Virus record (IMG/VR): IMGVR_UViG_2551306526_000001
Length of the DNA stretch: 20,028 nucleotides
Source of the DNA: a virus
Taxonomy: Duplodnaviria > Heunggongvirae > Uroviricota > Caudoviricetes
Strand: one strand, 5' to 3'
Made by a program: the position numbers
Shown here: in pieces, positions 12,001 through 15,000 of the stretch
Layout of the letters: every line of letters starts with the position of its first letter
Position numbering within the stretch: the first letter of the stretch is position 1

Positions 12001-15000
12001 GCGGGTGACTGAAGCAGGTGCGGATGATGAGGAGGAATTACAGCAGGAGGAGTAATGCTGAATCAGGAAACCGCAAAGGCAGCACGAACCGATTCAGGTT
12101 ATATCCTTCGCGCACCGAGACGAATGCGGGTTGCTGATGCCGTTGCTCAGTATATGCGGGTGGAGGGTCCGGCAGCTGCTTACCAGACACTCTCGCAACT
12201 CGTTTACAAACTGCTTACTGCAGAACAGGAATACGAGACAACCGGAAGTGAAGAAACACTCAAGACGGTTATCAATACCGACTGGGGATTACCTTATCTT
12301 CCCCGTGCCAGCATGGAGCAACGAAAAAGTGAACTGCTTGAGCAGCGGGCAGAGCCAGTTCCTTCCCGCAGTGTGCCGGATGGCGTTAATTTCCTTGTGG
12401 CGACAGTGGATGTGCAGGCGGGACGTCATCGCCGTTTTGTGGTTCAGGTAACGGGCTATGGCAGCCGTGGCGAACGCTGGATTATTGATCGTTACAACAT
12501 CACGCAGTCATTGCGCGGTGACAGCGACGGGGAGAGCCAGCGAATTGATCCGGCCAGCTATCCGGAAGACTGGGATGTCCTGCTGACGGATGTTTTTCAT
12601 AAAAGCTGGCCGCTGGCCTCCGATCCTTCTCAACAAATGCGACTGATGGCAATGGCGGTGGACTCCGGCGGTGAAGACGGGGTCACTGATAATGCCTATA
12701 AATTCTGGCGTCGTTGCCGTCGTGATGGCCTTGGTAAACGTATTTACCTGTTTAAGGGCGACAGCATCCGGCGCGCAAAACTGATCACCCGTACATTCCC
12801 TGATAACACCGGACGAACGGGCCGACGGGCGCAGGCCGCAGGTGATGTGCCGCTCTGGCTTCTTCAGACGGATGCCCTGAAAGACCGGGTGAATAACGCG
12901 TTATGGCGTGACTCGCCAGGTCCAGGCTATGTGCATTTCCCTGACTGGCTGGGGAGCTGGTTTTACGACGAACTGACGTATGAAGAGCGGAGCCGTGACG
13001 GGAAATGGAGTAAGCCGGGTCGCGGTGCCAACGAAGCTTTTGACCTGATGGTGTATGCCGAGGCTCTGGTCATTCTGCATGGATACGAAAAGATCCGCTG
13101 GCCGGATGCACCGGAGTGGGCGAGCCGGGAAACCTGGCTGGAGTGTGTCCCGGACAGTACCGAACCGTCACCCTCACCGGAACCGGTATCCACGCCTGTT
13201 AAAAAACAAAAACGGAAGAAAACAGTAACTGACGATGTTAACCCCTGGCTGACTTCCGGAGGATGGTTATGAACCAGAATGATATCGAAGCCATGATTCA
13301 GCGTTATACGGAAGCTGAAATGGCGGTGCTGGACGGAAAATCCGTCACCTTTAATGGTCAGCAGATGACCATGGAAAACTTATCTGAGATCCGGCAGGGA
13401 CGGCAGGAGTGGGAGCGCCGCCTTGCGGCTCTGATTACACGACGACGGGGGCATCCCGGGTACCGGCTGGCGAGGTTCTGATGGCAATTCTTGATGATGT
13501 GATTGGCGTTTTTTCACCAGGATGGAAAGCGGCAAGGCTGCGTTCCCGTGCGGTGATCCAGGCTTATGAGGCCGTAAAAACGACGCGGACACACAAAGCC
13601 CGGCGGGAAAACCGAACTGCCGACCAGTTAAGCCAGTACGGGGCCGTGTCGTTACGTGAGCAGGCCCGTTACCTTGATAACAACCACGATCTGGTTATTG
13701 GTGTATTTGACAAGCTGGAAGAACGGGTGGTGGGGAAAAACGGGATTATTGTCGAGCCACATCCGGTATTACGCAATGGGGCCATTGCCCGTGATCTGGC
13801 AGCGGAGATACGCACCCGATGGAGTGAATGGTCTGTCAGTCCGGAAGTCACCGGGCAGTTTACCCGTCCGATGCTGGAACGTCTGATGCTGCGTACCTGG
13901 CTGCGCGATGGTGAGGTGTTTGCCCAGATGGTTTCCGGGCGCATAAACAGCCTGACGCCTTCTGCCGGTGTTCATTTCTGGCTGGAGGCGCTCGAGCCGG
14001 ACTTTATTCCCATGACCAGTGATGAGAGCAACAGGCTGAATCAGGGCGTGTTTGTTGATGACTGGGGGCGTCCCGAAAAATATCTGGTGTATAAAAGCCG
14101 TCCCGTATCCGGGCGGCAGATGGAAACCAAAGAAGTGGATGCAGAGCGAATGCTGCATCTTAAATTTGTTCGCCGTCTGCACCAGATGAGCATGAGGCGC
14201 TGACGCCGGAAAAGTCCTGACGCGGGAAATGCAGTTTGTCATGCGGCTTGCCCGGGAGTTCCGGCGGGCAGACTGGCGGCGGATGCTGTCGGAAATGTCG
14301 GCCACTGAGCTTGGTGAGTGGGGCGATTATTTCCGGATGCAGAGCTTCAGTGATGTGTGGATGGATGCGCAGTTTGCCTCGCTGAAGGCATTGATCGTGA
14401 GAATGGTGTCCGGCAGCAGTGATGCTGCGGTGGCTGATTTCAGCCTTTTACCGGAAGAGAACGGGATACCGGAGCGAACGGACGAAGAGGGGAATACCAA
14501 CATCTCCGGCGTCACGGTGGTGTTCCGGGCCGGTGAGCAGGAGCAGACACCGCCGGAGGGATTTGAATCCTCCGGCTCCGAGACGGTGCTCGGTACAGAA
14601 GTGAAATATGACACGCCGATCACCCGGACCATCACGTCGGCAAACATTGACCGTCTGCGTTTTACTTTCGGCGTGCAGGCACTGGTGGAAACCACCTCAA
14701 AGGGGGACAGGAATCCATCGGAAGTCCGCCTGCTGGTTCAGATACAACGTAACGGTGGCTGGGTGACGGAAAAAGACATCACCATTAAGGGTAAAACCAC
14801 TTCACAGTATCTGGCCTCGGTGGTGGTGGATAACCTGCCGCCGCGCCCGTTTAATATCCGGATGCGCAGGATGACGCCGGACAGCACCACAGACCAGCTG
14901 CAGAACAAAACGCTCTGGTCGTCATACACCGAAATTATCGATGTGAAACAGTGCTACCCGAACACGGCACTGGTCGGCGTGCAGGTGGACTCGGAGCAGT

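What the first reader, a model, noticed from the sequence alone, without database searches (positions are those of the whole stretch)
12055..13272. Terminase large subunit lacking its ATPase domain
The ORF starts coupled to the small-subunit stop (TAATG) but is only 405 aa and has no Walker A motif. It retains the nuclease-domain region (VATVDVQ…) and the C-terminal tail. This indicates an internal or N-terminal deletion that would make the prophage packaging-defective, although it might still cut at cos.
Basis: partly seen in the sequence, partly recalled or inferred. Interest (0 to 1): 0.45.

Follow-up and report, generated by a model that had tools for sequence, protein, structure and literature searches.

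The report
Motor-less terminase gene, decayed prophage
A phage DNA-packaging gene in a heavily decayed E. coli prophage lost its ATP-motor domain through an 885-bp in-frame deletion, which is ordinary prophage decay, except that at least eight different deletions in other E. coli strains start at the same nucleotide.

Summary
ORF 12055-13272 (405 aa) overlaps the small-terminase stop (TAATG), has no Walker A motif and matches only the gpA nuclease domain. Viable phages that are 99% identical (mEp460, phi458) and about 1,350 E. coli prophages encode a 700-aa protein. The window carries a clean in-frame 885-bp deletion of codons 37-331. This removes the whole ATPase domain, including Walker A GPARTGKT. 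It keeps the N-terminal helix that binds the small subunit, the nuclease domain with its conserved acidic residues, and the C-terminal tail.

The deletion is not what cripples the prophage. Three larger deletions removed half the portal gene, the protease/capsid gene and most tail genes. The source is APEC strain chi7122. Only two other complete genomes share the junction, and both have truncated the gene further, so nothing suggests the gene was retained for a function.

The unexpected result is the left breakpoint (...GCGGGTG|CCC, window 12162). It is a recurrent, one-sided, allele-specific deletion hot spot. Eight distinct junctions share it, all deleting rightward by 0.9 to about 20 kb. 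All 29 disruptions within ±70 nt in 5,426 complete genomes lie at this position. The mechanism is unresolved.

The parts
11375..11386 (+). cosN-like sequence GGGCGGGAGCGT, the inferred cohesive-end site upstream of the small-terminase gene
   Evidence: It aligns with the lambda left end GGGCGGCGACCT-CGCGG. The record of phage mEp460_4F5 starts 2 nt upstream of this point. Its function is inferred, not tested.
11561..12055 (+). Small terminase subunit gene (DUF1441 type, 164 aa), intact
   Evidence: Pfam PF07278 E=2e-41. It is annotated as terminase small subunit in mEp460 and phi458.
12055..13272 (+). Large terminase gene lacking its ATPase domain (405 aa): intact residues 1-36 joined to residues 332-700
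   Evidence: Apart from the deletion, one private substitution (S to R at ORF residue 314) separates it from the L004 protein.
12055..12162 (+). Retained first 36 codons, the N-terminal segment that in lambda TerL is the helix anchoring TerS
   Evidence: It is 100% identical to the intact genes. The TerS-binding role is taken from PMC10810279 and is inferred here.
12161..12162 (+). Deletion junction: 'TG' microhomology between left site ...GCGGGTG|CCCATGG and right site ...TTGGATG|GAGGGG. The left side is the recurrent hot spot.
12163..13272 (+). Retained linker, gpA nuclease domain and C-terminal tail (intact residues 332-700)
   Evidence: Pfam GpA_nuclease. It is 99.7% identical in DNA to L004 17020-19050. 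The lambda D401 and E586 columns are conserved.
13263..13481 (+). Head-tail adaptor (gpW-position) gene, 72 aa, intact
   Evidence: Weak DUF6148 hit. It is annotated as head-tail adaptor in mEp460.
13481..14203 (+). Portal gene fragment: first 236 of 502 codons, then an out-of-context tail up to a stop
   Evidence: Pfam Phage_portal_2 covers model positions 3-205 of 354. Homology to the intact gene ends at 14188.
14185..14188 (+). Second deletion junction (GATG microhomology): 5.6 kb lost from the portal gene to gpG
14229..16181 (+). Chimeric ORF made of tail-gene fragments (gpG/T end, part of gpJ, tail-fibre C-terminus), produced by two further deletions of about 5.6 kb and 5.4 kb
   Evidence: Pfam hits to Phage_tail_T, FNIII-A_GpJ and Phage-tail_3 in one ORF. 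Junctions lie at 14480-14488 and about 15886-16013.
16181..16765 (+). Tail fibre assembly gene, intact
   Evidence: Caudo_TAP. It matches L004 37534-38118.

Best explanation
The ORF is a deletion derivative, functionally a pseudogene, of a lambda-gpA-family large terminase gene in a heavily decayed mEp460-like prophage of avian-pathogenic E. coli chi7122. One 885-bp in-frame deletion joined codon 36 to codon 332 through a 2-nt (TG) microhomology. It excised the ATPase/translocase domain almost exactly at its two boundaries. If the late operon is transcribed, the ORF should still be translated, because it is coupled to terS. The product would be a protein with the TerS-binding N-terminus, the nuclease domain and the portal-binding tail, but no motor. 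It cannot package DNA, and there is no capsid or complete portal left to package into. Shown here: the deletion, its exact extent, the loss of the ATPase motifs, the retention of the nuclease residues, the other three deletions, and the rarity and further decay of this allele. Inferred: that the product has no biological role. The left breakpoint is not random. It sits at a site-specific, rightward-only deletion hot spot of this terL allele. The pattern fits best a fixed 3' end (...GCGGGTG-3') that rejoins downstream through 0-7 nt of microhomology. What makes that end is unknown.
For: - **Intact comparators.** mEp460, phi458 and a prophage of strain 2017-02-2CC encode 700-aa TerL with GpA_ATPase (41-304) plus GpA_nuclease (326-644).
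- **Deletion mapping.** The window equals intact[1-36] plus intact[332-700] with one substitution. The deleted 295 aa hold Walker A GPARTGKT.
- **Rest of the prophage.** The window is collinear with the intact prophage except for four deletions in the structural module.
- **Rarity.** The exact protein occurs on one contig of the large collection, HE962388.1, which is chi7122. The junction is in 2 of 5,426 complete E. coli genomes. There it is annotated as a pseudogene and cut again after 399 nt. About 1,358 genomes keep the region intact.
- **Defence families.** The ORF has no PADLOC hit.
- **Hot spot.** All 29 disrupted copies in a 140-nt window break at this nucleotide. Eight different right partners were found. 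No junction keeps the right flank (control). None occurs at the equivalent site of the cdtI-type allele (control).
Against: The ORF is fully open, in frame and still coupled to terS. The deletion removes one domain very neatly and leaves the TerS-binding, nuclease and portal-binding parts. A nuclease-only or dominant-negative activity therefore cannot be excluded from sequence. With only 4 synonymous and 1 non-synonymous codon difference from the nearest intact gene, selection cannot be measured. Expression was not tested. For the hot spot, no mechanism was demonstrated, and independence of the events rests on the different right partners only.
Confidence: 0.93

Rival explanations
1. The family is naturally about 400 aa, or the ATPase is encoded separately, so this is a normal functional terminase subunit.
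For: PGAP uses the product name 'terminase gpA endonuclease subunit' for such ORFs.
Against: DNA that is 99% identical in viable phages encodes 700 aa with the ATPase domain. Lambda gpA is 641 aa. In RefSeq the name is attached to pseudogene fragments. No separate ATPase ORF lies in the window.
Confidence: 0.01
2. The motor-less protein is a domesticated factor. Together with TerS it would bind or cut cos of incoming related phages, or poison their terminase or portal, acting as a dominant-negative defence.
For: The ORF is open, in frame and coupled to an intact terS. cosN-like DNA, the TerS-binding N-terminus, the nuclease residues and the portal-binding tail are all retained. Two other nuclease-only or partial terL remnants exist (OW968288; IMG/VR L020).
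Against: The exact protein is in one genome only. The two sister genomes have destroyed it by a further deletion. It matches no defence-family model. ATP binding by TerL is needed for assembly on cos in lambda (PMC10810279). The other remnants are annotated pseudogenes with different structures.
Confidence: 0.05
3. The 885-bp gap is an assembly artefact of the source genome.
For: None specific. The chi7122 assembly is a 2012-era sequence.
Against: The identical junction is present in two independent complete genomes from Korea and South Africa. Shared segments are 100% identical.
Confidence: 0.01
4. The shared left breakpoint comes from RecBCD resection stopped by the Chi site 36 nt to its right, not from a site-specific break.
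For: A Chi site (GCTGGTGG, + strand) lies at L004 16175, inside the deleted DNA. Its orientation protects DNA to its left from breaks arising to its right. The next 23 kb of late genes have no Chi in that orientation. The cdtI-type allele lacks both this Chi and the hot spot.
Against: Chi-dependent ends are expected at or just 3' of Chi, not at one fixed nucleotide 36 nt beyond it (established RecBCD biochemistry, from memory). The second Chi in the same gene (L004 16643), which RecBCD would meet first, shows no comparable cluster of truncated copies.
Confidence: 0.1

Closest known systems
Lambda gpA-family large terminase (TerL; Pfam GpA_ATPase PF05876 + GpA_nuclease PF20454), specifically the mEp460/phi458 allele
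   Same: The retained parts are 99% identical in DNA. The gene order is the same (cos, terS, terL, gpW-like, portal). The nuclease domain, the lambda D401/E586-equivalent residues, the N-terminal 36 aa and the C-terminal tail are all present.
   Different: Residues 37-331, the whole ATPase/translocase domain with Walker A and B, are missing. The protein is 405 aa instead of 700.
Terminase-A fragment pseudogenes of E. coli K-12 cryptic prophages (aaaD in DLP12, next to nohD and joined to tfaD)
   Same: The kind of object is the same: a cryptic lambdoid prophage that keeps cos, terS and the start of terL, with head and tail genes deleted.
   Different: aaaD keeps lambda A codons 1-103 and nothing of the nuclease domain. 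Its breakpoint is at another position, in a different allele. The window ORF is an internal in-frame deletion that stays open.
RefSeq pseudogenes named 'terminase gpA endonuclease subunit' in APEC E19057 and VTB96926v
   Same: They carry the identical junction and are 100% identical in shared DNA. They are the same prophage remnant in sister strains.
   Different: There the gene is cut again after 399 nt and fused to a gpJ fragment. A further 7.8 kb (window 2128-9975) is also lost. The window holds the older, less decayed state.
Fixed-endpoint deletion series, such as Int-promoted deletions of lambda that start at att, or transposon-end adjacent deletions (recalled from the classical literature, not retrieved here)
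   Same: One endpoint is constant to the nucleotide, the other varies, and all deletions go in one direction.
   Different: No recombinase site, IS end or att-like sequence was recognised at the fixed end. The junctions show only 0-7 nt of microhomology.

Membership tests
Lambda gpA-family large terminase (functional TerL) | N-terminal ASCE ATPase domain with Walker A and Walker B motifs (Pfam PF05876) | tested here: not met
   No PF05876 hit and no [AG]xxxxGK[ST] motif in the ORF. The intact homologue has PF05876 at 41-304 and GPARTGKT at residue 73.
Lambda gpA-family large terminase (functional TerL) | C-terminal gpA nuclease domain (PF20454) with conserved acidic residues | tested here: met
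   PF20454 E=4e-83 over model positions 6-294 of 294. The columns of lambda D401 and E586 are invariant.
Lambda gpA-family large terminase (functional TerL) | Gene order cos, terS, terL, head-tail adaptor, portal, with terS-terL coupling | tested here: met
Lambda gpA-family large terminase (functional TerL) | Descent from a full-length gpA-family gene | tested here: met
   Both flanks of the junction are 99-100% identical in DNA to 700-aa genes of viable phages.
Lambda gpA-family large terminase (functional TerL) | ATP-driven DNA translocation and cos cleavage activity | not testable with these tools
   This needs biochemistry. Loss of the ATPase domain makes translocation impossible (inference).
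Defective (cryptic) prophage | Essential morphogenetic genes missing or truncated relative to a viable relative | tested here: met
   Four deletions relative to L004. The portal is cut at codon 236, and the protease/capsid gene and most tail genes are absent.
Defective (cryptic) prophage | Integrated next to a tRNA with an integrase and shared by related strains in progressively decayed forms | tested here: met
   In E19057 the same element lies beside tRNA-Thr and an integrase and carries two extra deletions. VTB96926v has the same internal structure.
Domesticated prophage gene (retained for a host function) | Conservation of the open reading frame across lineages | tested here: not met
   The exact protein is on one contig only. 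The junction is in 2 of 5,426 complete genomes, and both have truncated the gene further.
Known anti-phage defence families (PADLOC) | Match to a defence-system protein model | tested here: not met
   No PADLOC family at E<=0.001.

The most novel reading that the evidence does not exclude
The nucleotide after terL nt 108 (...GCGGGTG|CCCATGG) of the mEp460-type terminase gene is the site of a strand- or direction-specific DNA end, made by a nick, a replication arrest or a topoisomerase cleavage. This end repeatedly triggers rightward deletions of the late operon (0.9 to about 20 kb). It would be a built-in, sequence-encoded route by which these prophages lose their virion genes while keeping cos, terS and the distal tail-fibre and cargo genes. 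The window's motor-less terminase is the smallest product of that process.
Probability: 0.3. Interest if true: 0.6.

Novelty: new member of a known kind. Interest (0 to 1): 0.3.

Why it matters
The ORF itself matters little. It is one more decayed gene in a cryptic prophage, and annotators should treat it as a pseudogene rather than as an 'endonuclease subunit'. It is nevertheless a natural, exact domain excision (TerS-binding helix plus nuclease plus portal tail). That makes it a ready-made construct for asking what a gpA-type nuclease does without its motor. The recurrent, polar, allele-specific breakpoint is the part worth following. Prophage decay is usually described as random deletion filtered by selection. 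Here a single nucleotide position accounts for every disruption seen in its neighbourhood across 5,426 genomes, and eight independent deletions start there. If a defined DNA lesion underlies this, it would be a mutational rather than selective cause of how lambdoid prophages turn into cryptic remnants. It can be tested directly in an mEp460 lysogen.

Tried and rejected
- **PDB.** A sequence search with the intact TerL found no solved relative.
- **Other collections.** Exact-pattern scans for the left flank followed by a non-intact base gave 0 hits in metagenome contigs and 0 in one-genome-per-species contigs. IMG/VR gave two contigs, one of them a new junction class.
- **Literature.** Searches for a described terminase or prophage deletion hot spot, or a gyrase hot spot in prophages, found nothing relevant.
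- **Hairpin or structure-induced arrest.** Single-stranded DNA folds around the site are no better than shuffles (z = -0.3 to -0.8).
- **Conserved position in gpA genes.** K-12 aaaD breaks at lambda A codon 103, not at the equivalent of codon 36.
- **Protein-level selection for keeping 36 aa.** The cdtI-type allele has the same protein motif (FMRV|PKGAGNSVPWDP) but no junctions at that site.
- **CRISPR self-targeting.** The 29 partial matches are fully accounted for in number by the 29 junction genomes, so no spacer-length match remains.
- **Pseudo-cosN.** A cosN-like run (GGGCCGGGAAC against GGGGCGGGAGC) lies 8 nt to the right of the breakpoint. The predicted nick would be about 6 nt away from the observed end, so I did not adopt this.
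- **Gyrase consensus.** By my own count the site matches 10 of 13 specified positions of the published degenerate consensus (recalled from memory). This is suggestive only.
- **Not run.** I ran neither the large protein-database searches nor structure prediction. The Pfam match and the 99% DNA identity to intact genes already settle the identity.

Full report
**1. The observation**

The ORF at 12055-13272 (+) is real. It has an ATG start, encodes 405 aa, and its start overlaps the TAA stop of the upstream ORF 11561-12055 as TAATG. The upstream ORF is a DUF1441-type small terminase subunit (Pfam E=2e-41). The 405-aa ORF matches only GpA_nuclease (PF20454, E=4e-83, model positions 6-294 of 294). 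The next ORFs are a gpW-position adaptor and the first part of a lambda-family portal. No Walker A pattern is present.

**2. What it is**

- Megablast against phage records shows that the flanks are 99% identical to viable phages mEp460, phi458, Ayreon and others. The match falls into two pieces that lie 885 bp further apart in the phages.
- In those phages, and in an intact prophage of E. coli 2017-02-2CC (L004), the large terminase has 700 aa. It carries GpA_ATPase at 41-304 and GpA_nuclease at 326-644.
- The window protein equals intact residues 1-36 joined to 332-700, with one private substitution (S to R at ORF residue 314).
- The missing 295 residues contain Walker A GPARTGKT, the Walker-B-like CVALTDYD and the Cys-rich insertion.
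- At the DNA level, left site ...TATATGCGGGTG|CCCATGG is joined to right site ...TTTTGGATG|GAGGGG through a TG microhomology at window 12161-12162.
- A four-way alignment with lambda gpA (641 aa) shows that the family is not naturally short. The columns of lambda D401 and E586 are kept.
- The published lambda model places the TerS-anchoring helix at the TerL N-terminus, the ATPase at 29-366, the nuclease at 373-623 and portal contacts at the C-terminus (PMC10810279). The deletion therefore removes one domain almost exactly at its borders.

**3. Context**

- The window is collinear with the intact prophage from 1 to 12162. It then shows four deletions:
  - 885 bp inside terL;
  - 5.6 kb from portal codon 236 to the end of gpG;
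  - 5.7 kb from gpT into gpJ;
  - about 5.4 kb from gpJ into the tail fibre gene.
- The last three create a portal stump (13481-14203) and a chimeric 650-aa ORF (14229-16181) with T, J and tail-fibre pieces. The prophage cannot make heads or tails whatever the state of terL.
- A cosN-like sequence (11375-11386) resembling the lambda cohesive end is retained upstream of terS.
- The exact 405-aa protein is recorded on a single contig, HE962388.1. That contig is the chromosome of avian-pathogenic E. coli chi7122 (PMC8487346).
- Only 2 of 5,426 complete E. coli genomes carry the junction, APEC E19057 and VTB96926v. Both are 100% identical in shared DNA.
- Both have two extra deletions (window 2128-9975 and 12561-14791) that truncate this gene to 399 nt. 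RefSeq marks it there as a pseudogene.
- The window therefore holds an earlier stage of a progressive decay. Nothing indicates retention for a function, and there is no defence-family match either.

**4. How it most likely works**

- Shown: the ATPase/translocase is gone, so the product cannot package DNA.
- Inferred: because the ORF is open and coupled to terS, a 405-aa protein may be made when the late operon is transcribed. It could bind TerS and possibly DNA.
- cos cutting is doubtful, because ATP binding drives assembly of lambda terminase on cos.
- I put 0.93 on 'non-functional deletion remnant' and about 0.05 on a residual or interfering activity.

**5. The unexpected part: the left breakpoint is a hot spot**

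- A junction-spanning query showed a second, unrelated deletion in strains EC19, EC20 and EC24. It starts at the same nucleotide but ends in gpK.
- A 140-nt query centred on the site in the intact gene matched 1,387 genomes: 1,358 full-length and 29 truncated.
- A search built so that only 'left flank plus non-intact next base' can seed found exactly 29 genomes. This implies that every disruption within ±70 nt lies at this one position.
- Reading the junctions gives eight different right partners. Deletion sizes are relative to L004.

| Class | Right partner | Deleted | Found in |
|---|---|---|---|
| A | terL nt 994 | 885 bp | this window, E19057, VTB96926v |
| I | terL nt 1711 | 1,602 bp | an IMG/VR contig |
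| B | gpK | 13.6 kb | EC19, EC20, EC24 |
| C | gpJ | 16.0 kb | five ETEC strains, K_EC180, and a fox isolate that also has a later second deletion |
| E | lom | 18.07 kb | D2 and an IMG/VR contig |
| D | lom | 18.15 kb | ES2 |
| F | just after lom | 18.4 kb | the 042 lineage (14 genomes) |
| G | tail fibre gene | about 19.8 kb | OU342919 |

- Microhomologies, judged against L004, are 2 nt (TG) in A, B and I, 2-3 nt in C, 7 nt in D, 5 nt in F and 0-1 nt in E. G could not be assessed, because its first 38 nt after the junction do not match L004.
- The process is one-sided. A mirrored search for junctions that keep the right flank found nothing, and a local control showed that such junctions would have been detected.
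- It is allele-specific. The cdtI-type terL allele has the same protein motif at this point but different DNA (GCGTGTT|CCCAAGG). It is present in several hundred genomes and shows no such junctions (control). Selection on the protein therefore cannot explain the pattern.

**6. Mechanism of the hot spot: unresolved**

- The data fit a fixed 3' end, ...GCGGGTG, that pairs with a few bases downstream and is joined there.
- A Chi site lies 36 nt to the right in the protective orientation, and the next 23 kb lack Chi. The end, however, is too precise and too far from Chi. The other Chi in the gene has no comparable pile-up.
- Single-strand folding is unremarkable.
- The site resembles the degenerate gyrase cleavage consensus (my count, from memory), and most right partners also have T|G at the junction. 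This is not a test.
- No IS end, att-like core or CRISPR spacer match was seen.
- My rough weights are:
  - 0.5 for a site- or strand-specific nick or synthesis arrest followed by microhomology joining;
  - 0.15 for gyrase;
  - 0.1 for a Chi/RecBCD-related process;
  - the remainder unknown.

**7. Comparison with the known, and verdict**

- The ORF is a decayed member of the lambda gpA terminase family by descent. It fails the family's defining ATPase feature and should not be called a functional terminase or a distinct 'endonuclease subunit'.
- It belongs with the terminase-fragment pseudogenes of cryptic prophages such as aaaD of DLP12, which breaks at a different position.
- The recurrent, polar, allele-specific breakpoint was not found in the literature searched. 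It raises the overall interest modestly.

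Noticed in passing
window 12162 (= L004 16139); loci L005, L008-L012, L014, L015, L020, L021: The left breakpoint of the terL deletion is shared by eight different deletions, each with another right end (terL, gpK, gpJ, lom twice, after lom, tail fibre). All 29 disruptions within ±70 nt in 5,426 genomes lie here. The deletions run only rightward and occur only in this allele.
   Followed up: yes
L004 16175-16182 (inside the DNA deleted from the window, 36 nt right of the breakpoint): A Chi site lies here in the orientation that protects DNA to its left. The intact prophage then has a 23-kb late region with no Chi in that orientation. The second Chi in terL (L004 16643) shows no similar cluster of breakpoints.
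   Followed up: partly
L016 4960-6116 (E. coli isolate 10, NZ_OW968288.1): This is another nuclease-only terL pseudogene. Homology to terL starts at nt 988, 6 nt from the window's right breakpoint, and is preceded by AT-rich unrelated DNA and a different DUF1441 gene. The ATPase/nuclease boundary may also be breakage-prone.
   Followed up: partly
window 14229-16181: A 650-aa open chimeric ORF is stitched from gpG/T, gpJ and tail-fibre fragments by two deletions (junctions 14480-14488 and about 15886-16013). It stays open across both joints.
   Followed up: partly
window 2128-9975 and 12561-14791, compared with L003 and L007: The sister strains E19057 and VTB96926v have lost exactly these two segments (replication, Q, methylase and lysozyme; then the rest of terL, the portal stump and part of the chimera). 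The window is therefore the older state of a stepwise decay.
   Followed up: yes
window 19571-20028: An IS2 copy begins at 19571. It matches the IS2 that sits elsewhere in the E19057 remnant, so the IS position differs between sister strains.
   Followed up: no
window 16869-17858 (-) and 17871-19073 (-): These are cargo genes after the tail fibre assembly gene. The DUF2971 protein matches the PADLOC candidate defence system PDC-S31 (E=9e-21). The neighbouring DUF4236 protein has no hit.
   Followed up: partly
window 5183 and 5220: Two single-base insertions relative to the intact prophage fall in the KilA-N gene, which has no full-length call in the source genome. The PerC-like gene is called as two short ORFs. 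Decay also affects the early region.
   Followed up: no
L004 16032-18134 against L017 and L018 (cdtI-type allele): The terL genes are mosaic. Nt 1-100 are unalignable (this part goes with the terS type), nt 100-1080 are 50-87% identical, and nt beyond about 1080 are 97-100% identical. The nuclease half is shared between terminases that have different ATPase halves.
   Followed up: partly
window 8313-9365: An orphan type II-like DNA methyltransferase (N6_N4_Mtase; PADLOC MTase_II E=3e-152) lies between the Q antiterminator and the lysis genes, as in the intact relatives.
   Followed up: no
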